64,000 bases of DNA from Patescibacteria group bacterium (lineage in GTDB: Bacteria > Patescibacteriota > Minisyncoccia > UBA6257 > 2-01-FULL-56-20). Each line of letters starts with the position of its first letter. The first letter of the stretch is position 1. A program made the translations under genes and the position numbers. This document shows, in pieces, positions 3,899 through 59,844 of this stretch. Where the stretch lies: contig JANLHI010000022.1 of assembly GCA_024654525.1 (NCBI GenBank), positions 3,931 to 67,930 on the forward strand, written 5' to 3'. The notes under the pieces are model-generated. The model ran no database searches and was not told where the DNA came from. It worked only from the letters and a program-made list of their open reading frames with translations.

Positions 3899-3944
3899 AG
3901 CTCCCTAATCTAACCACAGAATGACAATTTGGAAAATCCGCTCA

Positions 3945-4571
3945 CTACTCTTCTATTTTTGCGAGAAATTGATCCACGCCAAATCCCGGCGTTCTTAATT
4001 CGCCATACTCAAGCACCACATCGGCATAACGCTTATACATTGCGTTTCTACTTCGAAGAAGCTCCAGATAACATCGAGCCAATGCTTCCTGCGGAGACTC
4101 GTGTGGATGTGGAATATATCTATCACCCCAAATCACCGGCTTTGGTTCGAGAAGGTAATCCCGATACAATTTTTCCCGTAGACTTTCCGGGGCATCCAAT
4201 GCTACCATCGTGCTCATACTCTTGAGTTTTTTAAAAATAACTTCTTCCGCATAAATACTGCTTCCGGTGGTATCGATGACAACATTTCCCCTACTATCCT
4301 GCAACATCAGAATCGCCTCGTTCATTGCCGAAGTTTCTTCTGCAAGATAGAGTGCCGCACATTCCTTGTACCGCGTTTCGTAGGGTTGACCCATCCAGCG
4401 GGCAACATCCTGAATACCTTTATACCCATTTGCTTGAAGATGAGGCGAAAGCCCCAACTCAATCCGATCATCACATGAAAAAGAAGTAAAACCGGCATTT
4501 TCAAACCTTTTTCTCCAAAAGGATTTCCCCACATTTGACATGCCCATAAGGGTAAGACTCATATTTTTCAT
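3945..4571 (-). CDS. P-loop NTPase kinase (shikimate/gluconate-kinase-like fold)
   Basis: Walker A GMSNVGKS at the N-terminus. 208 aa. Immediately upstream of thrC on the same strand. Confidence 0.55.
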   Translation of the reverse strand: MKNMSLTLMGMSNVGKSFWRKRFENAGFTSFSCDDRIELGLSPHLQANGYKGIQDVARWMGQPYETRYKECAALYLAEETSAMNEAILMLQDSRGNVVIDTTGSSIYAEEVIFKKLKSMSTMVALDAPESLREKLYRDYLLEPKPVIWGDRYIPHPHESPQEALARCYLELLRSRNAMYKRYADVVLEYGELRTPGFGVDQFLAKIEE

Positions 4572-5954: not shown

Positions 5955-6977
5955 ATGGTAAAACTTTTTCTTATCTCCGGAATAATTGCGCTTGCGATTG
6001 CAATAGGACTCGCCATTGAACCCCGGCAAGTGGTTATCGCGCCCCCTCAAACAAATACCCAAAATACGGAAGAACTTGCAATTATCGCGGAGCAAATCCC
6101 CGCAACAGGCACGCAAAATCCTCCCGTTGCACTCCCGCTCGAAACCCTGCCGGAACCGCTTCCGGAAACAAAAATTCCACTCGCCGCAACCAAAGCATCC
6201 CTCATAGCGCCGGAGGAAATTCTTCAGGGAAACGTTGGAAGGATTACCACCGATGATGCGCCATTTCTCAAAAAAGTGGTTTTTGACGGTGTGGAGATTC
6301 CGACATTCGTGTACGCCGGAAAACCCCGCACATTCATCGCAATAGACCTCGCCAAAAAACCGGGGACGTATGACTTGAAAACCACGCTTACGAACGGCGA
6401 AACCATTTCGAAAAAAATTGCGGTGATAGAACGAAAAAAACCACTCGTAGAAGAAGTTTCTATTCCAGAAAAGATTGGCGGGAATACTGAAGTAGGACAA
6501 AACAATTATTTAACCTCGATGAATGAGGCAAATACTGATATTAAAAACATCGTTACCGCACATGCAATCACTTGGACGCAAGAATTTATCCCTCCCCTTA
6601 CCAACATCACGATTACCAATCCTTATGGATATGGGGTAAGCACCGGCGCGTATGTTATTCCTCATAAAGGTACGGACTTTAAAGCGGCAGTGGGAACAAA
6701 ACTTGTCGCAATGAACAGTGGCGTGGTAAAAATTTCAAAAAACTACCCTTTCTCATACGGCAATATGGTAGTGATAGATCACGGACTGGGAATCGAGACA
6801 CTGTATCTCCACCTTTCGCGAATGGATGTAAAAGTTGGAGATGCTGTTGCGCGAGGACAAACTATCGGACTCTCGGGTGACACGGGCTACGTCTCGGGAC
6901 CTCATCTCCACTTGAGCATAAAAGTAGGCGGCATTTCGATTGACCCGATGCAGTTTTTAAAATTGTTTAACCCGTAG
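5955..6977 (+). CDS. M23 family metallopeptidase (LytM-like), membrane anchored
   Basis: N-terminal TM helix. C-terminal HKGTDF..NMVVIDHG..GDTGYVSGPHLHLS. Confidence 0.85.
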   Translation: MVKLFLISGIIALAIAIGLAIEPRQVVIAPPQTNTQNTEELAIIAEQIPATGTQNPPVALPLETLPEPLPETKIPLAATKASLIAPEEILQGNVGRITTDDAPFLKKVVFDGVEIPTFVYAGKPRTFIAIDLAKKPGTYDLKTTLTNGETISKKIAVIERKKPLVEEVSIPEKIGGNTEVGQNNYLTSMNEANTDIKNIVTAHAITWTQEFIPPLTNITITNPYGYGVSTGAYVIPHKGTDFKAAVGTKLVAMNSGVVKISKNYPFSYGNMVVIDHGLGIETLYLHLSRMDVKVGDAVARGQTIGLSGDTGYVSGPHLHLSIKVGGISIDPMQFLKLFNP

Positions 6978-6978
6978 A

Positions 6979-7033
6979 AATAAAAGAAGCCTCACTCATC
7001 GTTAGACAAGCAAGGCTTCCCATGTTTTTTTGC
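6979..7033. repeat. Copy 1 of a 55-bp direct repeat containing a hairpin (GAAGCCT-20 nt-AGGCTTC) flanked by A/T runs. Bidirectional terminator-like.
   Basis: Identical 55 nt at 8366..8420. Sits between convergent M23 peptidase and minus-strand genes. Confidence 0.7.
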
Positions 7034-7054
7034 CTCATTGCATCAGTGCGTGAT

Positions 7055-7432
7055 TCACTTCGCCTTAATGGTGCGAACTTTCACCTCTTGCGCCGCAATG
7101 ACGATGATAACAGGCTCCTCCCACGGATGATTAGGAACAATACCCTCGTTTATCACCCTTTCGAGAAGCTTCGCGTCTCCCGGAATGGAAAACTCCACCT
7201 TCACAGACTGGAAACTTGCAAGTTTCCTGATTTCACCAGAAGTGGGCGTAGAACCCTCAAGCGGGCGAAATTGCTCGACGCCGGGAGCGGACGACCATGC
7301 AACGGAGTCGTAATTTCCATGACGCAAGGCCGAGACCTTTATAACGCCTTCGATAAGCCGACTCGCATGTTCCGGCGATACAAATGTGGCGACACGATAT
7401 ACAGAAGAGAATCCGACCTTTTTAGTGCTCAT
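7055..7432 (-). CDS. Hypothetical protein, possibly CutA1/PII-like fold
   Basis: 125 aa. C-terminal HPWEEPVIIV resembles the CutA HPYEVPEII motif. Weak call. Confidence 0.35.
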   Translation of the reverse strand: MSTKKVGFSSVYRVATFVSPEHASRLIEGVIKVSALRHGNYDSVAWSSAPGVEQFRPLEGSTPTSGEIRKLASFQSVKVEFSIPGDAKLLERVINEGIVPNHPWEEPVIIVIAAQEVKVRTIKAK

Positions 7433-7542
7433 AACTTACTCCGATATGAATATACGGTTGGTTCCGTATTTATGTTGTTAATAGACCCGAAGCGGCAATA
7501 GTACTATTTGCGATTCATATTTGCAAGACCTTATATAATCAC

Positions 7543-7581
7543 AAATAAAAAAACCAGGGACGATTATGGTAATCGTCCCGG
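7543..7581 (-). terminator. Intrinsic terminator (10-bp stem GGGACGATTA/TAATCGTCCC followed by a U-run)
   Basis: Hairpin at 7554..7581 with a run of A at 7544..7553 on the plus strand. Lies after the stop of the 229-aa gene. Confidence 0.6.
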
Positions 7582-7601
7582 TTGGATTGATGGTTCTTTG
7601 T

Positions 7602-8291
7602 TTAAGTCTCACAACTAGGAAATCCCCCCCAACTTTTAGGTCTTTCTAAACTTTGAATCCCCACGCGCTTATCACACGAGGGTGTGCCATAGTATAAGCT
7701 TGCATGCCTATCCTTATAAGTACACAAAACAGGAAAACCGTTACGAAGACAAATTCGCGGGGAACGCCTTGAAAGTTTTGGCACCTTATGTCGTGAGGCA
7801 TTGGCAATTATATTATGATGTCGTAACACAGGAAAAACTGAAGCATGGACAATACATTCAAAAACAGTGTATGAAAACCTTCCCTCACACGCAAGCTCCC
7901 GTAGAGATTCAATATGTTTCATATCCATACAAGCTCTTCCATCTTCAACATTAGTCGCAATATAAGGACCATCGGGAACCTGTACAAGATTGCGAATCTT
8001 CCCCGCTTCAAGATCATTCCAACCTCTTACTCCATCATCCCACACCAAAAAAGACATAAGACGACTTAAATCGAGCGGGTCGGGTCGTCTCGGGACAAGG
8101 AGAGTGAGTCCTTTTTCGGGTACGAATTCAGCAAGGCGGCGGAGTTCATCTTCGTCACCTAATCCGATGTCAACCCAAAACGCAATTTGATGATAAAAAA
8201 GTTCGCGTGGGGTTGGGACGAACAAAGATGGTGAATGAGAAATTATTATCTCTTCATACTGCTCAACGGTAATTATGGGAAATGCTTTCAT
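7602..8291 (-). CDS. Hypothetical protein (229 aa), no recognizable domain
   Basis: ORF track. A C7 homopolymer near the 3' end means the C-terminus may be frameshifted. Confidence 0.45.
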   Translation of the reverse strand: MKAFPIITVEQYEEIIISHSPSLFVPTPRELFYHQIAFWVDIGLGDEDELRRLAEFVPEKGLTLLVPRRPDPLDLSRLMSFLVWDDGVRGWNDLEAGKIRNLVQVPDGPYIATNVEDGRACMDMKHIESLRELACEGRFSYTVFECIVHASVFPVLRHHNIIANASRHKVPKLSRRSPRICLRNGFPVLCTYKDRHASLYYGTPSCDKRVGIQSLERPKSWGGFPSCET

Positions 8292-8365
8292 ATCTAATCA
8301 TCTAAATTTTTCAAATCCATTAAACTGCGCTAAAACTAGCAAGAAAAAGGTTATGCTGTCAACAA

Positions 8366-8420
8366 AAATAAAAGAAGCCTCACTCATCGTTAGACAAGCA
8401 AGGCTTCCCATGTTTTTTTG
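8366..8420. repeat. Copy 2 of the 55-bp direct repeat / bidirectional terminator
   Basis: Identical to 6979..7033. Lies immediately downstream of the metG stop. Confidence 0.7.
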
Positions 8421-8434
8421 TGCCATCACAGAGG

Positions 8435-10105
8435 CTACTCCCCCGCTTCGGCAAGTTGAATTTCTCCGAGAATCAATTCGTGATCCACTTTTGGTATCAG
8501 CGGTGTCGGTTGCCCGATGGGGGTGTTGGCGGCAAGCGGCGAATATCTCCAACTCACATCGTCCGTGCCTAGATAGGCATTTAGCCTCTCTGTTACACCT
8601 GGGAAGAATGGTGCGGTAAGACGCCGTAAGGCGTCCGCCACCTCCATGCACACTTTGAGTGTTTCGGCGACGTGCGCCTTGTTGCTCTCGATGTTTCTCC
8701 ATGGCGCGCGGTGCTCGATATAGACGTTTGCCTTCCGTGAGAAGTTGAGAATACTCACCAGCGCTTGCCTCAATTCTCCCTTTTCGATGAACGCCCCCAC
8801 TTCTCTTAACGCAGTGGGTGATGCCATCCAAAGAACAACACTTTCATCGCTTACCGGCACACCACTATTGGGCACGGCACCGAAGTACCGATGCGTCATC
8901 GAAAACGTGCGGTTCCAGAAGTTCCCGAGATTTCCAACCAAGTCGGCATTCACCCGTGCTTCGAAGTCATCCCACCGAAATGTACTGTCTTTGCTTTCCG
9001 GCGAGTTGAGTGTGAGGTAGAACCGGATTGCGTCCGGATCGAATTTTGCAAGCGCATTCGGCAACCAAATGCCGATATTCTTGCTCTTCGAAAGCTTCAC
9101 GCCTCCGAAGTTCAAGAACTCGCTTGAGATGATTCTGTTCGGGAGGTGAAGCCCGAGCGCCATGAGCATCGCCGGCCAAATGATGGTGTGAAACGGAATA
9201 TTATCCTTCCCGTGCACGTAATAGTGCACCGCCTCCGGATTATCCCACCATTCGCGCCACGCTTCGGGAAGCCCTTCGGTTTGAAGGGACGCCCATTCGC
9301 GCGAACAAGACAGGTAGCCAATCACCGCTTCAAACCACACATACATCACCTTCTCGGTGAACCCTTCAACCGGCACCGGAATACCCCATGAGAGGTCCCG
9401 CGTAATGGGCCGGTCTTCGAGTCCCTTGGTAAGCCACGCCTCGGTAATTTTCACCGCGTTTTCCCGCCATCCTTCTTTTGACTTCTCCTTCCACTCCGCA
9501 AGATGTTTTTGAAACGCGGGCAGATGGAGATAAAGGTGTGTCGAAGGTTTCCAGACCGGTGTTGCGCCACACGTTCTGCAATGGGGCGCGATAAGATCAT
9601 GCGGGGTATGAAGATGCCCGCATGTATCACACTGATCACCACGCGCACCTTCCACCCCACACTTTGGATTCGGACATTTTCCTTCAATAAACCGATCAGG
9701 AAGCGTGCGATTACAGGTGTCGCACCGCGCCTGCTGTTCTTCACGCGTAACCATGTGGCCATCCGCATGAAGCTTCGCAAACACTTCTTGTGCTACTCCC
9801 TTGTGGAAGGCACCCATTGTCTTTGAGTACAACGAGTAGCTGAAACCGAGTTTCTTGACGAGCGTTTCCACAATCTCATCGTGGTACTGACCCGCCACTT
9901 CTTCCGGTGCTCTTCCTTCTTTGTCCGCGGTCACAAGAATCGGGGTGCCGTGGCAATCACTACCGGAGACAAAAAGCACATCGTCTCCATTTGCACGGTG
10001 ATACCGCGCGAGCACATCCGCCGGCAGTAATGCCGCGACGTGCCCCAAATGCAGCGAGCCATTGACGTATGGCCATGCCGCCGCAACCAATACCTTTTTT
10101 TTCAT
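8435..10105 (-). CDS. metG: Methionyl-tRNA synthetase
   Basis: HLGH (HIGH-class) and KLSKSK (KMSKS) motifs. Zn-knuckle cysteines. 556 aa. RBS GGAGGAA precedes the ATG. Confidence 0.9.
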   Translation of the reverse strand: MKKKVLVAAAWPYVNGSLHLGHVAALLPADVLARYHRANGDDVLFVSGSDCHGTPILVTADKEGRAPEEVAGQYHDEIVETLVKKLGFSYSLYSKTMGAFHKGVAQEVFAKLHADGHMVTREEQQARCDTCNRTLPDRFIEGKCPNPKCGVEGARGDQCDTCGHLHTPHDLIAPHCRTCGATPVWKPSTHLYLHLPAFQKHLAEWKEKSKEGWRENAVKITEAWLTKGLEDRPITRDLSWGIPVPVEGFTEKVMYVWFEAVIGYLSCSREWASLQTEGLPEAWREWWDNPEAVHYYVHGKDNIPFHTIIWPAMLMALGLHLPNRIISSEFLNFGGVKLSKSKNIGIWLPNALAKFDPDAIRFYLTLNSPESKDSTFRWDDFEARVNADLVGNLGNFWNRTFSMTHRYFGAVPNSGVPVSDESVVLWMASPTALREVGAFIEKGELRQALVSILNFSRKANVYIEHRAPWRNIESNKAHVAETLKVCMEVADALRRLTAPFFPGVTERLNAYLGTDDVSWRYSPLAANTPIGQPTPLIPKVDHELILGEIQLAEAGE

Positions 10106-10207
10106 ACTGATTCCTCCATATTAACTTGTTAAGGTCGTGCTGACGGCACGATTTTTCTTTTAAAGAACGCACACGCGTCCCCATTGAAAAACCGCCGAAG
10201 CAAGGAA

Positions 10208-10278
10208 TGACTGGGATGGGACTTGAACCCACAACCGGGTACTTATGAAGCACCTGCTCTACCTTGAGCTACCCAGTC
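10208..10278 (-). tRNA. tRNA-Met (anticodon CAT), elongator type. CCA not encoded.
   Basis: Manual cloverleaf: 7-bp acceptor with G1-C72, U8, D-stem GCTC/GAGC, anticodon loop TTCATAA, T-loop TTCAAGT, 71 nt. Not initiator-like: 1-72 are paired and there is no GGG/CCC run in the anticodon stem. Confidence 0.85.
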
Positions 10279-10388
10279 ATTGCGAAGCAAACGTATCACA
10301 AAATACCATCGCCAACAAGCGGAATGAGAGAACGCCCAACCCGAAGGTTGAGCGTTCAATGATTCTGAAATCCAAACAAACCACATGT

Positions 10389-11330
10389 CTAGACCGCGAC
10401 TAGATCGGCATTCCGCGTGACCCTTGATGCCCATGGCGCCGGAGCTTCCGGACGGTAGTGCCGGAACTGACCCATCCCGGCACCGATCTCTGTCCCGAGA
10501 CTGTGGAACTGGTACACATCCAATCCTCCTTGCGCGCAAATTTGCTCGAACGCATGGTGATTGGCGGATTCCGCGAAACCCGTCTCGGAGACAGGCGAGA
10601 ATCGTGACAGGCGTAGTCGGACAGGTAAACCGTTCAATAGTCCGACTAATTCTTCGGCATGCGCTTCCGCATCGTTGACGTCCTTGAGCAGGACATAATT
10701 TAGGACAACCCTCGTTCGGAGGGTGTCCGCGTATTCCACCGCGGCGGCGAGCACTTCGCCAATCGGGTATTGCCGTGTGATTGGCATCAGTTCCGTTCGC
10801 AGCTCATCGTTCGGCGCATGGAGCGACACCCGAAGCTGGAGGTTCGTCATGCGAAGACCCACGAGTTTGCGAATGCCGGGAGCAATCCCGACGGTCGAGA
10901 TGACAACCCGCATGTCGGGAGAAATGTGCTCCAACGCACTTTTCACCGCGCTGAAATTCAGCAACGGTTCTCCCATTCCGGTGAAAGAGACCTCGAGGCC
11001 TCGCGCCGGATATTGCGTATCGCCGAGCATCCCGTTGACTTGAAGGATAATCTCGTCGCCAGTCAGATTGCGTACGATTCCCTGCAAACCCGTGGCGCAA
11101 AACGCACACTTCATCGCGCAACCGATTTGGCTGGAGATGCACAGCGAATCGTACTCACGAGTTCTGAACTGGAGGTGAGCGCTTTCGACCGTATGTCCGT
11201 CACGGGTAGCCCAAACGTACTTTGTTACTACGCTACTTTCGGCTTTTGCCTGTAAGGACATTCGGCTCGCCGTATTGTTGATGTTATGCCCGCCGATGGT
11301 TTCCATCGAACGAGCGTTTCGCATGCCCAT
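10389..11330 (-). CDS. RlmN/Cfr-family radical SAM enzyme, N-terminally short. The ORF track start at 11429 is probably an over-extension.
   Basis: CISSQIGCAMKCAFCATG (CxxxCxxC), MGMGEPLLN and SLHAPNDELR match RlmN. GC about 62 %. A candidate start, MGMRNAR at 11330, lies inside inverted repeat A. An alternative start is at 11261. Confidence 0.75.
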   Translation of the reverse strand: MGMRNARSMETIGGHNINNTASRMSLQAKAESSVVTKYVWATRDGHTVESAHLQFRTREYDSLCISSQIGCAMKCAFCATGLQGIVRNLTGDEIILQVNGMLGDTQYPARGLEVSFTGMGEPLLNFSAVKSALEHISPDMRVVISTVGIAPGIRKLVGLRMTNLQLRVSLHAPNDELRTELMPITRQYPIGEVLAAAVEYADTLRTRVVLNYVLLKDVNDAEAHAEELVGLLNGLPVRLRLSRFSPVSETGFAESANHHAFEQICAQGGLDVYQFHSLGTEIGAGMGQFRHYRPEAPAPWASRVTRNADLVAV

Positions 11331-11343
11331 AGCATGCCCGTCT
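11310..11343. repeat. Inverted repeat A (34 bp), a perfect reverse complement of 12741..12774
   Basis: AGACGGGCATGCTATGGGCATGCGAAACGCTCGT on the minus strand. Covers -13 to +21 of the radical SAM start codon. Confidence 0.9.
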
Positions 11344-11674
11344 AGAATACATGTGGTATTCATAATTGTTAACGTACTGCGTACGACTCCCTTTATGAAG
11401 AATGATTTCCTATGGGGTCGCGCGTGCAACCCTCACAGCGTCTTACGACATTCATAATAAAGAGCCGTATAGAAATAATAGGAGTGCTTATAGAAAAGCG
11501 CAAACATGGAAACTGTGTGTATCTCGGATATCCTTTATAAATAGCTCATTACCGAACAAAAAAGCTATGTATAACAGCTGAAATGGCAAGCCGGCTAACC
11601 CATAAACATAGATTAGCCGACAAGGCATTATTTTCGAACATAATTCAGTTCTTCGACAGAGCGGTAACCGCTAT

Positions 11675-12457
11675 TCACAAATGATTTTTCATGCGCCCAA
11701 GCATAAATGCATGATCCCTCGGGTCGTACTTGCGCATGTAATATCGACATCTCAACTCTCTTCTCTCAATTACTCTGGGACGAGCGCATAAGCTGCAAAA
11801 CACGAATGGATACATCCTAAAAAAATCTGCAGATACGCGATCCCGAGAAAGGACTGCCGAATACTGGTGGCAACATTTACTTGCACACTCATCGCACACA
11901 GCTTCGTTTGGAGATAATTTATAGGAGTAATCCAACATTGCATCGCCACATTGTTTGCAACGAATTCCGCCCGTAACAACAACCGCCCGTTTTCCTTCAA
12001 AATCAGTTTCACCAAGAAAAACCAGCTTTCTACCACCATAGCGAGCAGTATTATTAAGATCATCAAGCACTTTTTCATCATCTCTCGTACTCCCGCACAG
12101 AAAGATAATGCGCCCTTGTTGCCTCAATTTCGAAAAAGCTTCTCTAAAAACCTCTTCATTATTGAATGTAGCAGTGGTAATTTTCTTACCATCAGTTATA
12201 ACAGTGCCAATTGAGTTCGAATTCAAACTGCAAAGCTCTAAACTGACTTCGTTAAAAGAACCGCCACAAGGATTCTGAAAAAGAACCCAGAGAGATTTCT
12301 CACTACCAGTTACATTGTTCACACACATCCATGAGATATGCTTAATCGAATCTCCCGGCTTGAGTACCTCAACAACAGCGATAATATCTTCAGCCTCACC
12401 CGTTTCAATCGGCACCAATGTATAAGTCGCCGTTTCTTCATCACAGATAATTTTCAT
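11675..12457 (-). CDS. Hypothetical 260-aa protein with C-terminal CxxC..CxxC zinc ribbon and an Arg/Cys-rich basic tail
   Basis: RBS AAGGA 8 nt before ATG 12457 (MKIICDEE). The ORF track version (start 12652) has an implausible N-terminus. About 40 % GC, unlike its flanks. Confidence 0.5.
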   Translation of the reverse strand: MKIICDEETATYTLVPIETGEAEDIIAVVEVLKPGDSIKHISWMCVNNVTGSEKSLWVLFQNPCGGSFNEVSLELCSLNSNSIGTVITDGKKITTATFNNEEVFREAFSKLRQQGRIIFLCGSTRDDEKVLDDLNNTARYGGRKLVFLGETDFEGKRAVVVTGGIRCKQCGDAMLDYSYKLSPNEAVCDECASKCCHQYSAVLSRDRVSADFFRMYPFVFCSLCARPRVIERRELRCRYYMRKYDPRDHAFMLGRMKNHL

Positions 12458-12576
12458 AACATAATTCCTTTTTGAAATTTTCAATTTGCGCAAACGGTGA
12501 AGAATTGAGTGTAGCAAGCAGAACATCAAATGACAACCAGCTACAAGAGAATAAAACGCCAGACTTAGCAACCCCG

Positions 12577-12604
12577 TTGACACACCAAAAAAAAGTACTA
12601 TTAT
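12577..12604 (+). promoter_or_regulatory. Sigma70-like promoter (TTGACA-16-TATTAT) about 150 nt upstream of metK
   Basis: Sequence match only. Confidence 0.45.
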
Positions 12605-12740
12605 CCCCTTACAATCCTTATTGTACGCACCGCAAGGTGCTGCGTGAATCAACTTTGTTGATTTCGTAGGAAATTATTTCTTTACAAGAAGAGTTGCAAC
12701 GTTTAGTTCATTCAAAACTTATGAGTACTCCAAGTACCCA

Positions 12741-12774
12741 AGACGGGCATGCTATGGGCATGCGAAACGCTCGT
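12741..12774. repeat. Inverted repeat B (34 bp)
   Basis: Identical to the reverse complement of 11310..11343. Covers -13 to +21 of the metK start (ATG 12754). Confidence 0.9.
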
Positions 12775-13860
12775 GTTGTGGCGGTTGAATTCGTCACGCC
12801 CGGGCATCCAGATAAGGTCTGCGATCAAATTGGAGACAGTATCCTTGACGCCGCAATCACTCAAGATCCACTTTCGCGAGTTGCCCTTGAGACAACCGGC
12901 GGACATGGTCTCGTGATGGTAAATGGCGAGATGACTACCAAAGCCGACCTCGATATTGTTAGCATCGTGCAAAGAAAGTATGCCGAAATTGGACATGACC
13001 GTTCCATCGAAGTACTCCTTCGCATCGTTCAGCAGTCTCCGGACATTGCACAGGGAGTTGACGACTGTGCTGCCGCTGGCAAAGACAGCGATGAACAAGG
13101 AGCGGGAGATCAGGGAGTCATGGTGGGTTACGCCATCGGTGGCGAGGCAAACTTCATGCCGCAGGCATATAACCTCGCAAAAGCGCTCACTGACCGACTA
13201 ACGGAAGTGAGAGTTCGAGGGATTCTCCCTCACGTAAAGGCTGACGGCAAAAGCCAGGTCACTTTGGTGAACGGCGTTGTCACTCGCGTGACCATCGCCG
13301 CACATCACAGCGACACAGTCGGGCTTGAACAACTGCGCGCAGATATTCTCAAAGATGTCGTGCAGGTGGTCATCCCCGGAATCAACGGCGACGCTGTCAC
13401 CATCAACGGCACCGGAAAGTTCGTGCAAGGCGGTTTCGAAGCTGACGCGGGAACTACCGGTCGCAAATTGGCAGTGGACAATTATGGTCCTCTGGTTGAA
13501 ATCGGCGGCGGATGCTATTCGGGAAAGGATCCTTCGAAAGTGGATCGGAGTGCGGCATATTTCTGCCGGATGGTGGCAAAGGCCATTGTTGCGGGAGGCC
13601 ACGCGAACGAAGCAGTCGTGAAGGTGGGCTACGCCATCGGCGTCGCAAAACCGACATTCCTGTCGGTGCTGACTCCTCTTGATGGAGAAGCGGCCGAAAA
13701 ATTCGAAGCGCATGTGCTGTCGAAGTTCGATTTTCGGCCCAAAGCCATCATCGAACGTCTCGGGCTCCGGAAACCCGACGGCTGGTGCTATGCCGACACT
13801 GCCGCAGCGGGTCACTACGGGGATGACCGGTTCCCGTGGGAAAAAGTGGTGGAGATCTAA
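12754..13860 (+). CDS. metK: S-adenosylmethionine synthetase
   Basis: GHPDKVCDQIGD, GGGCYSGKDPSKVDRSAAY. GC about 62 %. The ORF track start at 12694 is probably over-extended. MGMRNAR..VEFVTPGHPDK aligns with the MetK N-terminus. Confidence 0.9.
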   Translation: MGMRNARVVAVEFVTPGHPDKVCDQIGDSILDAAITQDPLSRVALETTGGHGLVMVNGEMTTKADLDIVSIVQRKYAEIGHDRSIEVLLRIVQQSPDIAQGVDDCAAAGKDSDEQGAGDQGVMVGYAIGGEANFMPQAYNLAKALTDRLTEVRVRGILPHVKADGKSQVTLVNGVVTRVTIAAHHSDTVGLEQLRADILKDVVQVVIPGINGDAVTINGTGKFVQGGFEADAGTTGRKLAVDNYGPLVEIGGGCYSGKDPSKVDRSAAYFCRMVAKAIVAGGHANEAVVKVGYAIGVAKPTFLSVLTPLDGEAAEKFEAHVLSKFDFRPKAIIERLGLRKPDGWCYADTAAAGHYGDDRFPWEKVVEI

Positions 13861-13900
13861 AGATCTCACAGGGTAGGAAGGGGTACCCAGTATGTTTTTA

Positions 13901-13941
13901 ACAAAAAAGTGCCTTCGCTCACGCGAAGGTACTTTAATTTT
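13901..13941. terminator. Bidirectional intrinsic terminator (CCTTCGC-tcac-GCGAAGG flanked by A- and T-runs)
   Basis: Lies between convergent metK (+) and the NUDIX gene (-). Confidence 0.55.
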
Positions 13942-13968
13942 CCCACTAATTTCTCACATGGGAATGCC

Positions 13969-14448
13969 TCAACTCCTTTTCAAAAATATCTTCAACATCT
14001 CAACCTCTATTCCAATCTGCGAATGAAGCGGGGAAGGAAGCTGGTCTAACGCGAACCATCCTATTTCGTCTATCTTCTCCGGGTCACCGTTCTTAACTTT
14101 TGCAGGGTCAACCAACACCCAATGCATGTTTTTTACCCAATGAGTAGACAATCCGTTGTGCGTGCGGAGTACATTTTTTGTAGTCACATATTCGATTTCA
14201 AGCGGTACCACGCCGTATTCCTCCAGAACCTCGCGTGCCACCGTGTCTTCAAACGTTTCGCCAAATTCCATCGCTCCTCCGCCACAATCCCATACATCCT
14301 GTTCATCGCGACACTTTTTGCTCCGCTTGTGCATAAGTATGCGCCCTTCCGTGTCATAGCACCAAAACACGCAGTTCACACCGATATAATCAACACCGCG
14401 CTTCATATCCCGCTTTTGATATTCCGGAGATTTCTGATCGGGAATCAT
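13969..14448 (-). CDS. NUDIX hydrolase
   Basis: Nudix box GGGAMEFGETFEDTVAREVLEEYG. Confidence 0.85.
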   Translation of the reverse strand: MIPDQKSPEYQKRDMKRGVDYIGVNCVFWCYDTEGRILMHKRSKKCRDEQDVWDCGGGAMEFGETFEDTVAREVLEEYGVVPLEIEYVTTKNVLRTHNGLSTHWVKNMHWVLVDPAKVKNGDPEKIDEIGWFALDQLPSPLHSQIGIEVEMLKIFLKRS

Positions 14449-14450
14449 GG

Positions 14451-15209
14451 CTATTCAACCCTCTTCGACTGATGCTCTTTCAAAAATCCTGAAAATCCCT
14501 TTATCATCTCCAACGGCACCGTGAATACTACTGTGTTTGACTGATCCGAAGAGATATCATTGATGGATTGCAATGTGCGAAGGTGAAGCGCTCCGTCCAC
14601 CGCAGAGAGTATCTTTGCCGCTTCCGCCATGTTTTGAGCCGCGGCAAGCTCCCCTTCTGAATTGATAATAACCGCGCGTTTTTCCCGTTCCGCTTCCGCT
14701 TGTTTCGCAATCGTTCGCTCCATGTCCGCCGGTAAACTTACATCTTTAAGCTCCACATTACTCACTTTAAGTCCCCATTCATCCGTCTCTTTGTCCACGA
14801 TTTCACGAATTCGGTCAGCAAGCTTTTCCCGATTTGCCAGAAGTTCATCTAAACTTACTTCCCCCACGATGTTCCGCATGGTAGTTTGTGCAAATTGAGA
14901 AATTGCATAGTAAAAATCCTGCACTTCAAGAATCGCTTTTTCCGCGGACTGCACACGATAATAAATCACCGCGTTTACCGTGACCGATACATTGTCGCGC
15001 GTGATTGCTTTTTGATCCGGCACATCCACGGCTTTGATACGCATATCCACCTTCTGATAGCTTTGAAACACGGGAATTACGATCCGCCATCCCGGCTCCA
15101 TTACATTACTGAAACGCCCCATCGTAAATTTCAAACCACGTTCATACTGATTCACCTGTCGCAAGCTTGCAATCAGAAGCACAACAATTATTGATATATA
15201 TATCTCCAT
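14451..15209 (-). CDS. SPFH/band-7 (stomatin/HflC-like) membrane protein
   Basis: N-terminal TM helix followed by an SPFH-like region. Start chosen at MEIYISII (15209). The ORF track extends it to 15278. Confidence 0.8.
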   Translation of the reverse strand: MEIYISIIVVLLIASLRQVNQYERGLKFTMGRFSNVMEPGWRIVIPVFQSYQKVDMRIKAVDVPDQKAITRDNVSVTVNAVIYYRVQSAEKAILEVQDFYYAISQFAQTTMRNIVGEVSLDELLANREKLADRIREIVDKETDEWGLKVSNVELKDVSLPADMERTIAKQAEAEREKRAVIINSEGELAAAQNMAEAAKILSAVDGALHLRTLQSINDISSDQSNTVVFTVPLEMIKGFSGFLKEHQSKRVE

Positions 15210-15243
15210 AAGTGTATTATACCATATATAATTCATCCTTATC

Positions 15244-15639: not shown

Positions 15640-15987
15640 ATGCACCTTCTTCGCACCAATAAAATGTACGAAAAATATGTTCGTTTTATACATAAAGGCG
15701 GTCTTCGCGAAGAATGCGTGCTTTGCACAAAAAAACCGATTAAGTCCTTCCGTTATTGGCGCATTATTATGAATGATTTTCCTTATAACAGAATCACCAA
15801 CATTCATCATATGATAGTCCCGAAACGGCACACCGTAGAAGCAAAACTCACAAAGAAAGAGAGGGAAGAACTCCAAAAATTGAAAATGAGGTATGTGAGC
15901 CCGAATTATACTTTTATTATGGAGGCATCCCATAAAGACAAGTCCATCCCCTCACACTTCCATCTCCATCTTGTGGTGATTAAGTAA
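15640..15987 (+). CDS. HIT-family-like protein
   Basis: C-terminal HFHLHLVV (HxHxHxx). Confidence 0.55.
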   Translation: MHLLRTNKMYEKYVRFIHKGGLREECVLCTKKPIKSFRYWRIIMNDFPYNRITNIHHMIVPKRHTVEAKLTKKEREELQKLKMRYVSPNYTFIMEASHKDKSIPSHFHLHLVVIK

Positions 15988-16585
15988 GAGGAAATAAAAC
16001 TTCCTTAATCCCCGCCATCGCATCAATCACCAATTGAATATGCTCGGCGCGATTGACTCCTAACTCGGCAATTCCCTGCTCAATATCTTCACGGCTTACT
16101 TTCGCCGCGAATCTTTTTTCCTTAAGCCGTTTTTCAACCGATTGCACATTGAGACTTGCGAATTTATCCGGTTTCATATGCGCAATCGCCATCACAAACC
16201 CGCAAAGCTCATCCACCGCAAACAGGCATTTTGCGGCATTGGTATCACGTGGTACACCCGAATATAGTGCGTGCCCCAGAATAATCCGCATTACTTCTTC
16301 CGGATATTCCTTTTCACGTAGAATCTTCTCTCCTTCAAACGGATGTCCCGTTCTTGCATCCGCATCGGGCTTGCCCGCCATAGCTTCAGCGACGGCGGGA
16401 ACGGGGTACTTCTCATAATCAAAATCATGGAGTAGCCCGCAGATACCCCACAACTCCTCATCCTCGCTATATTTTTTCGCATATGCGCGCATGGCGGCTT
16501 CAACCGACAAACAATGTTTACGCAAACTCTCCGACTGAACATATTCGGCAAGAAGCTTCCATGCTTCATCGCGATTTGGAATCAT
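15980..16585 (-). CDS. HD-domain phosphohydrolase
   Basis: LLHDFDY, with His/Asp motifs. Confidence 0.8.
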   Translation of the reverse strand: MIPNRDEAWKLLAEYVQSESLRKHCLSVEAAMRAYAKKYSEDEELWGICGLLHDFDYEKYPVPAVAEAMAGKPDADARTGHPFEGEKILREKEYPEEVMRIILGHALYSGVPRDTNAAKCLFAVDELCGFVMAIAHMKPDKFASLNVQSVEKRLKEKRFAAKVSREDIEQGIAELGVNRAEHIQLVIDAMAGIKEVLFPLT

Positions 16586-16653
16586 ACAATCATTGTACCC
16601 ATAATAACCGTATTACGGCAATTTATTTAGCAATATCTAAGTAACGTATTACA

Positions 16654-28500: not shown

Positions 28501-28534
28501 CTCATAGGACAATTCCATAGAATTGTCCTATGAG
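28501..28534. promoter_or_regulatory. Palindrome CTCATAGGACAATTC-CATA-GAATTGTCCTATGAG, a third copy of the ArsR-1 box family (core ACAATTCnATAGAATTGT)
   Basis: Shares half-sites and 4-nt spacing with the palindromes at 59467..59504 and 59815..59844. Confidence 0.5.
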
Positions 28535-43629: not shown

Positions 43630-43667
43630 TTCATATTCAAGTATTTTGCAAAATACTTGAATATGAA
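43630..43667. promoter_or_regulatory. 38-bp perfect palindrome TTCATATTCAAGTATTTTGCAAAATACTTGAATATGAA (ArsR-2 box, downstream copy)
   Basis: Shares a 28-bp core with 44020..44057. Lies upstream of the DEAD-box helicase. Confidence 0.6.
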
Positions 43668-43717: not shown

Positions 43718-43990
43718 TTATGTAAGCGAACGGCAAAAAGAGAACACCGCCTCCGCTCGAAGAGTAAGTTTGTGGCGCACGGTCGTACCTTCGTACCGCT
43801 TTATCACCAACCCCGCAATTGCAAGTTTTCGAATATGATCGGATGCATTCTGATAATTCATACGAAGCTCATCGGCAATCTCCTCCACGGAAAGCTCCGG
43901 CTTTTTCTTCAAAAGTTCGAATATTTCCAATCGTCGATGATTCGCAAATCCTTTAATAATTCGCTCAAGTCTTCGTGAAGTATTATTCAT
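43718..43990 (-). CDS. ArsR/SmtB-family transcriptional regulator (paralog 2)
   Basis: HTH LSVEEIADELRMNYQNASDHIRKLAIAGLV. RBS AAGGGAG before ATG 43990. Confidence 0.8.
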   Translation of the reverse strand: MNNTSRRLERIIKGFANHRRLEIFELLKKKPELSVEEIADELRMNYQNASDHIRKLAIAGLVIKRYEGTTVRHKLTLRAEAVFSFCRSLT

Positions 43991-44019
43991 ATCTCCCTTG
44001 CTATTATTACACACTGACT

Positions 44020-44057
44020 CCACTATTCAAGTATTTTGCAAAATACTTGAATAGTGG
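44020..44057. promoter_or_regulatory. 38-bp perfect palindrome CCACTATTCAAGTATTTTGCAAAATACTTGAATAGTGG (ArsR-2 box, promoter copy)
   Basis: Lies 30 bp upstream of the arsR-2 start, between divergent genes. Confidence 0.6.
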
Positions 44058-59466: not shown

Positions 59467-59504
59467 CCTCTATGGAACAATTCTATAGAATTGTTCCATA
59501 GAGG
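59467..59504. promoter_or_regulatory. 38-bp perfect palindrome CCTCTATGGAACAATTC-TATA-GAATTGTTCCATAGAGG (ArsR-1 box), immediately upstream of purN
   Basis: Perfect reverse-complement symmetry. Confidence 0.6.
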
Positions 59505-59509
59505 AAACC

Positions 59510-59797
59510 CTATACCAGTTTGATTAAAATTCTGAAATCTTCGGGCATGTTGGCGCCCAGAGAATAAAAAACGTGTCCGTTCATTCCTTTTGCATCCACT
59601 ACATCAAGTCGTTTAAGAATAGCGAGATGGTTTGAGGTCGCTTTAAGCGAAATTTCCAACTCATCCGCAATCTGTCCCACGTGCATCGCCGGCCCTTCCG
59701 AAAGCATCACTATAATTTTTAAGCGATTCACGTTCGCCAGCGCCCGAAACACCGTAGTCCAACGTTTATGATTCCGATTTCCTTTCGCCATGCCCAT
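59510..59797 (-). CDS. ArsR/SmtB-family transcriptional regulator (paralog 1) inside the pur operon
   Basis: HTH VGQIADELEISLKATSNHLAILKRLDVV. A TATAAT at 59810..59805 sits 7 nt before ATG 59797, so the transcript may be leaderless. Confidence 0.8.
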   Translation of the reverse strand: MGMAKGNRNHKRWTTVFRALANVNRLKIIVMLSEGPAMHVGQIADELEISLKATSNHLAILKRLDVVDAKGMNGHVFYSLGANMPEDFRILIKLV

Positions 59798-59814
59798 TCC
59801 ATATATTATATCGC

Positions 59815-59844
59815 ATTGGAACAATTCTATAGAATTGTTCCAAT
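59815..59844. promoter_or_regulatory. 30-bp perfect palindrome ATTGGAACAATTC-TATA-GAATTGTTCCAAT (ArsR-1 box) overlapping the arsR-1 promoter
   Basis: Abuts the -10 element. Confidence 0.6.

What the first reader, a model, noticed from the sequence alone, without database searches (positions are those of the whole stretch)
6979..8420. 55-bp direct repeats (a bidirectional terminator sequence) flanking a 1.33 kb two-gene cassette inserted between M23 peptidase and metG
Identical 55-mers sit at 6979..7033 and 8366..8420. Each contains a 7-bp hairpin flanked by A/T runs, a bidirectional-terminator arrangement. Between the copies are two independently transcribed minus-strand genes (229 aa unknown, 125 aa CutA-like), each with its own promoter and terminator. 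The arrangement looks like an insertion that duplicated its target, in the manner of attL/attR or recombination at the terminator. No integrase or transposase is present.
Basis: seen in the sequence. Interest (0 to 1): 0.6.

Follow-up and report, generated by a model that had tools for sequence, protein, structure and literature searches.

The report
Recently duplicated transcription terminator, not a cassette
Two identical 55-base copies of one transcription terminator sit 1.39 kb apart in an uncultured Patescibacteria genome, but relatives show that the genes between them were not inserted as a unit, so this is most likely an ordinary local copy of a terminator and not the scar of a mobile element.

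Summary
The repeat is real: an exact 55-nt direct repeat at 6978-7032 and 8366-8420, the only two copies in the 64 kb. It is an intrinsic terminator, strong for minus-strand transcripts (17-bp hairpin plus U-run) and weak on the plus strand.

The cassette-insertion reading fails on comparison with relatives.
- In three related contigs (L028-L030), the M23 gene is followed by a homologous terminator and then a truncated homolog of the 125-aa gene. Nucleotide identity is even across all three parts (72-76%). M23-terminator-125-aa is therefore ancestral, and copy 1 is the resident terminator.
- The two window copies are 100% identical, so copy 2, downstream of metG, is far younger than that arrangement, or it has been homogenised by gene conversion.
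- In two other relatives M23 abuts NUDIX or Band_7. No relative retrieved has M23-terminator-metG.
- The 229-aa gene belongs to the DUF5701 family and has atypical composition. In another relative it lies on the other side of tRNA-Met-metG.
- None of the 63 ORFs of 100 aa or more in the window is a recombinase.

Best reading: a recent local copy or conversion of a terminator onto the 3' end of metG, at a seam in a rearrangement hot spot. The mechanism is inferred. Reads and closer relatives are needed to settle it. Interest is low.

The parts
5955..6977 (+). M23 metallopeptidase gene. The true start is probably about 60 codons inside this ORF. Its stop codon TAG abuts copy 1.
   Evidence: Pfam Peptidase_M23, E 4e-29. 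Homologs are about 281 aa. Upstream synteny zf_Tbcl_2 / GIY-YIG / NUDIX / M23 is shared with relatives.
6978..7032 (-). Terminator copy 1, the resident ancestral copy. It terminates the 125-aa gene and, weakly, M23.
   Evidence: Exact repeat. 17-bp minus-strand hairpin 7021..6984 plus U-run. A homologous terminator sits at the same place in L028-L030, 72% identical, with compensatory stem changes.
7055..7432 (-). 125-aa gene (NUV53_02385): stand-alone PII-like domain related to the insert domain of NIF3/YqfO. An old neighbour of M23.
   Evidence: Profile match to 2gx8 residues 162-255, E 5.9e-14. Foldseek top hits are 2gx8, 3lnl, CPII and, lower, CutA. A 5'-truncated ortholog, 78% aa identity, lies next to M23 in L028-L030.
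7557..7579 (-). Separate intrinsic terminator of the 229-aa gene (10-bp stem, then U7).
   Evidence: Terminator scan; sequence.
7602..8291 (-). 229-aa gene (NUV53_02390): divergent DUF5701-family protein of unknown function, with atypical composition.
   Evidence: 107 relatives by exhaustive HMMER. 40 of 41 aligned family members match Pfam DUF5701; the window protein itself scores 21.4 bits, below the 27.4 cut-off. AF2 pLDDT 91.5 with no PDB or viral fold match. GC3 0.32, second lowest of 63 ORFs.
8292..8365 (-). Upstream region of the 229-aa gene. A perfect TTGACA (8362..8357, minus strand) lies 3 nt from copy 2. The -10 element is only weak.
   Evidence: Read from the sequence. The consensus promoter scan reported no site here.
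8366..8420 (-). Terminator copy 2, the young copy. It terminates metG, 14 nt after its stop codon.
   Evidence: Exact repeat. Hairpin 8409..8372 plus U-run, -26.7 kcal/mol. Identity to copy 1 stops sharply at both ends.
8435..10105 (-). metG (methionyl-tRNA synthetase).
   Evidence: Pfam tRNA-synt_1g, E 9e-141. 74% and 79% aa identity to metG of L050 and L031.
10207..10279 (-). tRNA-Met (CAT) immediately upstream of metG. The pairing is conserved in L031 and L050.
   Evidence: ARAGORN and Rfam.

Best explanation
The 55-mer is a Rho-independent terminator built for minus-strand transcripts.

Copy 1 (6978-7032) is the old, resident terminator between the convergent M23 gene and the 125-aa gene. 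Copy 2 (8366-8420) is a very recent exact copy of it, or the product of a short gene-conversion or template-switch event that overwrote an earlier metG terminator. It sits 14 nt after the metG stop codon, at the seam between the metK / tRNA-Met / metG block and the DUF5701 gene.

Functionally, copy 2 would end metG transcription and shield the downstream DUF5701 gene and the 125-aa gene, each of which appears to be a separate unit.

The two genes between the copies are not one unit. One is an old neighbour of M23. The other is a compositionally odd gene that occupies different positions in different genomes.

Shown: the repeat, the hairpin, the ancestry of copy 1 and the 125-aa gene, the absence of recombinases, and the variability of this site among relatives.

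Inferred: that copy 2 derives from copy 1, and how. The borders of the copied patch fall in the A-run and the T-run of the terminator, which would suit microhomology-guided template switching or a short conversion tract.
For: 1. The hairpin plus U-run lies directly after the stop codons of both metG and the 125-aa gene. The six G-U pairs make it strand-specific.
2. L028, L029 and L030 come from three independent assemblies. In each, M23 is followed by a 47-nt homologous terminator and then the C-terminal 68 codons of a 125-aa-gene homolog (78% aa identity). Nucleotide identity is 72% (M23 3' end), 72% (terminator), 76% (spacer) and 76% (gene remnant), that is, one vertically inherited block.
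3. The two window copies are 55/55 identical, and their similarity ends abruptly at both borders. The duplication is therefore much younger than the M23-terminator-125-aa arrangement.
4. In L024 and L020, M23 is followed directly by orthologs of window genes at 13975-14454 (NUDIX) or 14451-15224 (Band_7). The whole 7-kb stretch 6978-13968 is lineage-specific, and M23-terminator-metG occurs in none of the relatives retrieved.
5. In L050 (metG 74% aa identity) the closest homolog of the 229-aa protein (P0128, a DUF5701-family protein; 41% identity) lies upstream of tRNA-Met-metG, not downstream.
6. GC3 is 0.32 for the DUF5701 gene, 0.53 for the 125-aa gene and 0.60 for metG.
7. None of the 63 ORFs of 100 aa or more is an integrase, transposase or HUH enzyme.
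8. There are no further copies in the window or in the 52 fetched loci, and the 34-nt core is absent from the JGI metagenome and IMG/VR collections.
Against: No genome close enough to show the state before the duplication was found, so neither the direction (copy 1 to copy 2) nor the mechanism is observed.

The inner stem of the 55-mer resembles the sequence at the same offset downstream of metG in L050 (14 of 5000 and 10 of 3000 shuffles reach the score). This could mean metG already had a related terminator and the two were homogenised, which is not a de novo copy.

Only 64 kb of the genome could be searched, so a dispersed family of this hairpin is not excluded.

A precise 55-bp patch copied 1.39 kb away has no well-documented dedicated mechanism that I could cite.

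The repeat length equals 55, the largest default k-mer of metaSPAdes (from my own knowledge). Reads could not be inspected.
Confidence: 0.6

Rival explanations
1. Cassette integration. A circular or linear 1.33-kb two-gene element carrying the 55-mer recombined with the terminator shared by M23 and metG. The recombination was either homologous over 55 bp or done by a recombinase acting in trans. It left a copy on each side, like attL and attR, and the element could excise again.
For: Perfect direct repeats with sharp borders. Both enclosed genes look like self-contained units with a terminator between them. The site downstream of M23 differs in every relative. The DUF5701 gene has atypical composition. 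55 bp is enough for RecA-dependent recombination (general knowledge).
Against: The 125-aa gene and copy 1 are ancestral next to M23, at the same divergence as M23 itself, while the repeats are identical. The two genes differ in composition and are never linked elsewhere. No empty site M23-terminator-metG was found in any relative. There is no recombinase in 64 kb. Neither protein has phage, plasmid or defence-system matches.
Confidence: 0.1
2. Old duplication kept identical by concerted evolution. Both terminators are ancient, one after the 125-aa gene and one after metG. Repeated short gene conversion between copies 1.39 kb apart keeps them identical.
For: Copy 1 has a clear positional homolog in L028-L030. 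The inner stem of the 55-mer also shows a position-matched similarity to the metG 3' flank of L050 (p about 0.003), which the L028 terminator lacks. The 55-mer could therefore be a hybrid of two resident terminators.
Against: The L050 similarity is short (18 of 21 nt with a 3-nt gap), and that L050 stretch does not fold as a terminator. A 55-bp unit with no flanking homology is a poor substrate for repeated conversion. No relative with two copies was seen.
Confidence: 0.15
3. Member of a dispersed hairpin repeat family (REP-like or MITE-like) that lands at the 3' ends of genes. The two copies are independent insertions.
For: A hairpin with A/T-rich flanks at gene 3' ends is where REP-type elements sit (general knowledge). 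Only about 64 kb of the genome could be examined.
Against: Only two copies in 64 kb, even allowing 3 mismatches. No RAYT or IS200-type gene is present. Copy 1 is orthologous in position and flanks to the L028 terminator, so it is not a recent arrival. The core is absent from the JGI metagenome and IMG/VR collections.
Confidence: 0.08
4. Assembly or population artefact. The contig threads twice through one 55-mer node of a k=55 de Bruijn graph. In the cells the intervening 1.33 kb may be present only in a sub-population, or as a tandem or circular form.
For: The repeat length equals the largest default k of metaSPAdes (my own knowledge; the assembler of this MAG is unknown to me). No second assembly of this organism could be retrieved.
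Against: All four junctions must exist in reads for the graph to contain them. The path M23-55mer-125-aa gene is independently confirmed by synteny with L028-L030. Reads of ordinary length would span a 55-nt repeat.
Confidence: 0.05

Closest known systems
Rho-independent (intrinsic) terminators shared by convergent genes
   Same: A stem-loop followed by a U-run directly after stop codons, with an A-run on the other side, lying between convergent genes (M23 and the 125-aa gene). The hairpin is conserved through compensatory changes in L028.
   Different: Here an exact second copy sits 1.39 kb away after another gene. In this genome the hairpin is strongly asymmetric: six G-U pairs on the minus strand become C-A mismatches on the plus strand.
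attL/attR direct repeats flanking integrated elements (genomic islands, prophages, integrative elements)
   Same: Identical direct repeats of tens of bases bracket a stretch of accessory genes at a site that varies among relatives.
   Different: There is no integrase or excisionase, and the adjacent target is not a tRNA or tmRNA gene. The bracketed genes are of different ages, one of them ancestral at this site. No empty site was found.
Integron gene cassettes flanked by attC hairpins
   Same: An imperfect hairpin of about 55-60 nt on each side of small genes.
   Different: No R''/R' box pair lies at the ends; a single GTTAGAC lies in the loop. There is no intI. The genes appear to have their own promoter-like regions and a terminator between them. 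Only two sites are present.
REP/BIME and other small hairpin repeats at gene 3' ends
   Same: Hairpin repeats in intergenic regions between convergent genes that can act as terminators or mRNA stabilisers.
   Different: Two copies only, perfectly identical, with no RAYT gene. One copy is positionally orthologous in a relative.
Short segmental duplication or gene conversion between nearby repeats
   Same: A perfect short direct repeat with sharp borders and no recombinase. The borders fall in homopolymer-rich A and T runs.
   Different: The copied unit is exactly a functional terminator placed at a useful position, 14 nt after the metG stop. This suggests it was retained by selection.

Membership tests
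Intrinsic (Rho-independent) terminator | G+C-containing stem-loop immediately followed by a U-run on the transcript | tested here: met
   Minus strand: 17 pairs (6 G-C), loop of 4, then UUUUAUUU. Energies -23.0 and -26.7 kcal/mol, z -3.8 and -5.7.
Intrinsic (Rho-independent) terminator | Located just downstream of a stop codon in the sense orientation | tested here: met
   Copy 2 starts 14 nt after the metG stop. Copy 1 starts 22 nt after the stop of the 125-aa gene.
Intrinsic (Rho-independent) terminator | Structure conserved in relatives despite sequence change | tested here: met
   The L028 homolog folds on both strands (-22.8 and -22.4 kcal/mol), with GGAGCC/GGCTCC in place of GAAGCC/GGCTTC. 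This rests on one related lineage only.
Intrinsic (Rho-independent) terminator | Actually stops RNA polymerase | not testable with these tools
   Needs transcript 3'-end mapping or in vitro transcription.
Bidirectional terminator | Hairpin equally stable on both strands, with an A-run upstream and a T-run downstream | tested here: inconclusive
   The A-run and the T7 run are present. The plus-strand stem is only 7 bp with a 20-nt loop (-16 kcal/mol) and the U-run starts 5 nt after the stem. The L028 version is symmetric.
attL/attR of an integrated mobile element | Site-specific recombinase in or next to the element | tested here: not met
   No integrase, transposase or HUH domain in any of 63 ORFs of 100 aa or more in the window.
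attL/attR of an integrated mobile element | Empty site (one repeat copy, flanks joined) in related genomes | tested here: not met
   Relatives have M23-terminator-125-aa remnant (L028-30), M23-NUDIX (L024) or M23-Band_7 (L020), never M23-terminator-metG. The relatives are distant (62-69% aa identity), so absence is weak evidence.
attL/attR of an integrated mobile element | Bracketed DNA arrived as one piece, later than the flanks | tested here: not met
   The 125-aa gene is co-inherited with M23 (72-76% nt identity throughout). GC3 is 0.53 against 0.32 for the two genes.
Transposon target-site duplication | Short duplication (2-14 bp), terminal inverted repeats, transposase | tested here: not met
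   The duplication is 55 bp. There are no inverted repeats at the inner borders and no transposase.
Integron cassette / attC | R''(RYYYAAC)...R'(GTTRRRY) boxes at the two ends of the hairpin, plus an intI integrase | tested here: not met
   Only one such heptamer, GTTAGAC, and it lies in the loop. No integrase is present.
REP/MITE-like dispersed repeat | Many copies scattered in the genome | tested here: inconclusive
   Two copies in 64 kb with up to 3 mismatches allowed and none in the other loci. The rest of the genome was not available.
   No Pfam or NCBIfam hit. CutA structures appear only from rank 30, E 0.07, in the fold search.
PII-like insert domain of NIF3/YqfO proteins | Sequence-profile and fold match to that domain | tested here: met
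   Profile of 6 homologs against 2gx8 residues 162-255, E 5.9e-14, and against 3lnl/2nyd, E 3e-11. Foldseek top hits are 2gx8 and 3lnl. The AF2 model is of moderate quality (pLDDT 72).
Pfam DUF5701 (229-aa protein) | Score above the Pfam gathering threshold | tested here: inconclusive
   The window protein scores 21.4 bits, below the 27.4 cut-off. However, 40 of 41 aligned relatives match DUF5701, best E 4.5e-16, and the closest relative P0128 is annotated PF18959.

The most novel reading that the evidence does not exclude
The identical terminator pair is a working recombination substrate. It would make the 125-aa + DUF5701 segment an integrase-free module that pops out and back in by host homologous recombination. 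Alternatively, hairpin-guided template switching may be a regular way in which these small genomes give a relocated gene, here metG, a ready-made terminator. The inverted duplication of the metK 5' element 3-5 kb away (11310-11370 and 12714-12774) would be a second example of regulatory parts being copied at the seams of rearranged blocks.
Probability: 0.1. Interest if true: 0.55.

Novelty: new member of a known kind. Interest (0 to 1): 0.2.

Why it matters
As it stands, this matters little. It is one more short duplication of a regulatory element in a rearrangement-prone spot of an uncultured Patescibacteria genome. It is also a caution: perfect direct repeats around small genes need not be att sites.

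It would matter more in two cases. One is if reads showed the segment excising, which would mean recombinase-free cassette mobility. The other is if copying of terminators and leaders at block seams proved to be a recurrent way in which reduced genomes keep relocated housekeeping genes properly punctuated.

Tried and rejected
1. Exact look-ups of the window's M23, metG and 229-aa proteins in public assemblies found nothing. The source contig (NCBI MAG, locus tags NUV53_) could not be retrieved, so neither the rest of the genome nor the reads could be checked.
2. metG in species-representative genomes reached only 42% identity or less, in Chloroflexota and others. That scan is now spent.
3. The 34-nt core of the repeat gave no hit in JGI metagenomes or IMG/VR.
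4. The metG search of JGI metagenomes found one 79% relative (L031), but that contig ends inside metG, so its 3' side is unknown.
5. Rfam gave no match to the repeat or the cassette region.
6. Neither protein matched the defence-system (PADLOC), phage-family (PHROGs), plasmid or phage collections. The 125-aa family has no relative in viral contigs. The DUF5701 alignment was too divergent for that scan.
7. I tested whether DUF5701 is functionally tied to metG and rejected it. Other family members lie between ABC transporter genes (L051) or between ftsA and ftsZ (L052). None of the 30 metG-centred loci fetched by similarity to the window's metG (L001-L019, L031-L041) carries one; L050, reached through the DUF5701 homolog itself, is the only one.
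8. I looked for flanking direct repeats around DUF5701 in L051 and L052 and found none.
9. I asked whether the other perfect repeat pairs in the window (43634/44024 and 59473/59817) are the same phenomenon. They are not: they are palindromes flanking ArsR-type regulator genes, probably operators.
10. Tetranucleotide composition of the 1.39-kb segment is not an outlier (65th percentile).
12. Literature searches for DUF5701, for NUV53 and for terminator duplication gave nothing usable.
Full report
**Observation**

The window holds an exact 55-nt direct repeat at 6978-7032 and 8366-8420, with start-to-start spacing of 1388 nt. With up to three mismatches these are the only copies in 64 kb, and none is expected by chance.

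The unit is AAATAAAAG, then a hairpin, then CCCATGTTTTTTTG. On the plus strand only a 7-bp stem forms (-16 kcal/mol). As minus-strand RNA it forms a 17-bp hairpin (6 G-C, 5 A-U, 6 G-U) with a 4-nt loop, followed by a U-run. Energies are -23.0 and -26.7 kcal/mol, z -3.8 and -5.7. It is the longest terminator-like hairpin in the first 20 kb. The G-U pairs become C-A mismatches on the other strand, so the element is tuned to minus-strand transcripts.

Copy 2 lies 14 nt after the stop of metG (8435-10105, minus). Copy 1 lies 22 nt after the stop of the 125-aa gene (7055-7432, minus) and touches the stop codon of the M23 peptidase gene (5955-6977, plus). Between the copies lie the 125-aa gene, a separate terminator (7557-7579) and the 229-aa gene (7602-8291).

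**Source and proteins**

The window comes from an NCBI MAG labelled Patescibacteria group bacterium, locus tags NUV53_02385 and NUV53_02390, on a 75-kb contig.

- **The 229-aa protein.** It is not an orphan. An exhaustive HMMER search finds 107 relatives, and 40 of 41 aligned members match Pfam DUF5701. The window protein itself scores below the Pfam threshold. Its AlphaFold model is confident (pLDDT 91.5), yet it has no match among solved or viral structures.
- **The 125-aa protein.** It has five homologs. A profile of them matches the PII-like insert domain of NIF3-related proteins: 2gx8 residues 162-255 at E 5.9e-14, and 3lnl/2nyd. The fold search agrees, and CutA appears only far down the list. 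'CutA-like' is therefore right about the fold class and wrong about the family.
- **Mobile-element links.** Neither protein matches defence, phage or plasmid collections.

**Relatives on the M23 side**

M23 homologs of 62-69% identity share the upstream genes zf_Tbcl_2, GIY-YIG, NUDIX and M23. They differ downstream.

- **L024 and L020.** In L024, M23 is followed after 13 nt by a NUDIX gene orthologous to window 13975-14454. In L020 it is followed by a Band_7 gene orthologous to window 14451-15224. Both then reach the HD gene of window 15980-16588. Against these genomes the extra DNA in the window is not 1.33 kb. It is the whole 7 kb from 6978 to 13968: the 125-aa gene, DUF5701, metG, tRNA-Met, a radical-SAM gene, a 325-aa ORF and metK.
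- **L028, L029 and L030.** These three independent assemblies give the decisive result. M23 is followed by a 47-nt homolog of the 55-mer, then by the last 68 codons of a homolog of the 125-aa gene (78% aa identity) in the same convergent orientation. The homologous hairpin folds well on both strands and carries compensatory changes.
- **Even divergence.** Nucleotide identity to the window is 72% for the M23 3' end, 72% for the terminator, 76% for the spacer and 76% for the gene remnant. M23, terminator and 125-aa gene are therefore one old, vertically inherited block, and copy 1 is the resident terminator.

**Relatives on the metG side**

- **L050.** In this Logan contig metG is 74% identical and metK about 75%. 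The closest DUF5701 homolog (41%) lies upstream of tRNA-Met-metG, whereas in the window it lies downstream.
- **L031.** metG is 79% identical. The contig has metK, tRNA-Met and metG with no DUF5701 upstream, and its 3' end is missing.
- **Other DUF5701 genes.** They sit between ABC transporter genes (L051) or between ftsA and ftsZ (L052). In both places they are compositional outliers.
- **Composition in the window.** DUF5701 has GC3 0.32, the second lowest of 63 ORFs (mean 0.456, sd 0.064). The 125-aa gene has 0.53 and metG 0.60.
- **Homologs of the 125-aa gene.** They occur in unrelated contexts and never beside DUF5701.

The two 'cassette' genes therefore have different histories.

**Inference**

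Copy 1 has diverged by about 28% between the window lineage and the L028 lineage, yet the two window copies are 55/55 identical, and their similarity stops sharply at both borders. The duplication, or the last homogenisation, is much younger than the residence of the 125-aa gene next to M23. This contradicts a single insertion that brought both genes and duplicated its target. No recombinase is encoded among the 63 ORFs of 100 aa or more.

The most economical account is a recent 55-bp copy of the resident terminator placed at the 3' end of metG, at the seam between the Met block and the DUF5701 gene. There it would terminate metG and insulate the downstream genes. The patch borders fall in the A-run and the T-run. 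That would fit microhomology-guided template switching or a short conversion tract, but this step is inferred, not shown.

**A complication**

The inner stem of the 55-mer resembles the sequence at the same offset after metG in L050: AAGCC.TGCTTGT..ACGAT. Only 14 of 5000 and 10 of 3000 shuffles reach that score. The L028 terminator shows no such similarity. This is weak evidence that metG once had a related terminator and that the two were homogenised. I keep that as a rival at about 0.15.

**Other rivals**

- **Recombination-mediated cassette (0.1).** It survives only if gene conversion or parallel insertion is added to the model.
- **Dispersed hairpin family (0.08).** It cannot be excluded without the rest of the genome.
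- **Assembly or population effect (0.05).** The repeat length equals 55, the largest default k of metaSPAdes (my own knowledge). However, the path M23-55mer-125-aa gene is confirmed by synteny with L028-L030.

**Comparison with known systems**

The element meets the sequence criteria for an intrinsic terminator. It does not meet the tested criteria for att sites, transposon target duplications or integron attC sites. REP-like status is undecided.

**Verdict**

This is a new example of a known kind of event, and interest is low. Reads from the source sample and closer relatives would settle the remaining questions.

Noticed in passing
window 11310-11370 (minus) and 12714-12774 (plus); L050 about 3915-4015; L031 about 959-1005: A block of about 40 nt, TAGACGGGCATGCTATGGGCATGCG[A/T]A[A/C]CGCTCGT, is invariant at nucleotide level at the 5' end of metK in three genomes whose MetK proteins are only about 75% identical. 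A second, inverted copy sits at the 5' end of the radical-SAM gene in the window. There is no Rfam match. It is a candidate uncatalogued cis-regulatory element, possibly SAM-related, that overlaps the start codons.
   Followed up: partly
window 6978-13968: Compared with L024 and L020, the whole 7-kb stretch between M23 and the NUDIX/Band_7 genes is lineage-specific. It holds the 125-aa gene, DUF5701, metG, tRNA-Met, radical SAM, a 325-aa ORF and metK. The 3' side of M23 is a rearrangement hot spot in this family.
   Followed up: partly
window 7602-8291; L051 6001-6648; L052 6001-6753: DUF5701 genes are single-gene compositional outliers lodged between housekeeping genes: GC3 0.32 against about 0.46 in the window, 0.86 against about 0.65 in L051, and 0.67 against about 0.38 in L052, where the gene sits between ftsA and ftsZ. 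The fold is confidently predicted (pLDDT 91.5) and matches no solved structure.
   Followed up: partly
L050 5612-5850 and 8565-8786: In the relative L050 the unit DUF5701-tRNA-Met-metG is bracketed by two diverged direct copies (72% over 93 nt) of a small 73-aa ORF with no Pfam match. The upstream copy is frameshifted.
   Followed up: partly
L028 3992-4195, L029 3985-4188, L030 4060-4263: The homolog of the 125-aa gene is 5'-truncated in these relatives, with only residues 58-125 left. The gene is therefore decaying there.
   Followed up: yes
window 43634-43663 and 44024-44053; 59473-59498 and 59817-59842 (third copy, 81%, at 28505-28530): Perfect 30-nt and 26-nt palindromes each occur twice, flanking small ArsR-type HTH regulator genes (43718-44023 and 59510-59824). 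They are probably paired operators for the regulator and a neighbouring gene.
   Followed up: partly
window 10207-10279 and 8435-10105; L031 1577-1651; L050 6644-6717: A tRNA-Met (CAT) gene lies about 100 nt upstream of metG, on the same strand, in all three related genomes. This pairs the synthetase gene with its tRNA gene.
   Followed up: no
window 8435-10105: Among species-representative genomes the best metG matches are only 35-42% identical, mostly Chloroflexota. metG, metK and the radical-SAM gene have the highest GC3 in the window (0.56-0.62). The Met block may have a different origin from the rest of the contig.
   Followed up: no
window 6978-7032 and 8366-8420: The repeat length, 55, equals the largest default k-mer of metaSPAdes (my own knowledge). 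The assembler used for this MAG is unknown and the reads were not available.
   Followed up: no
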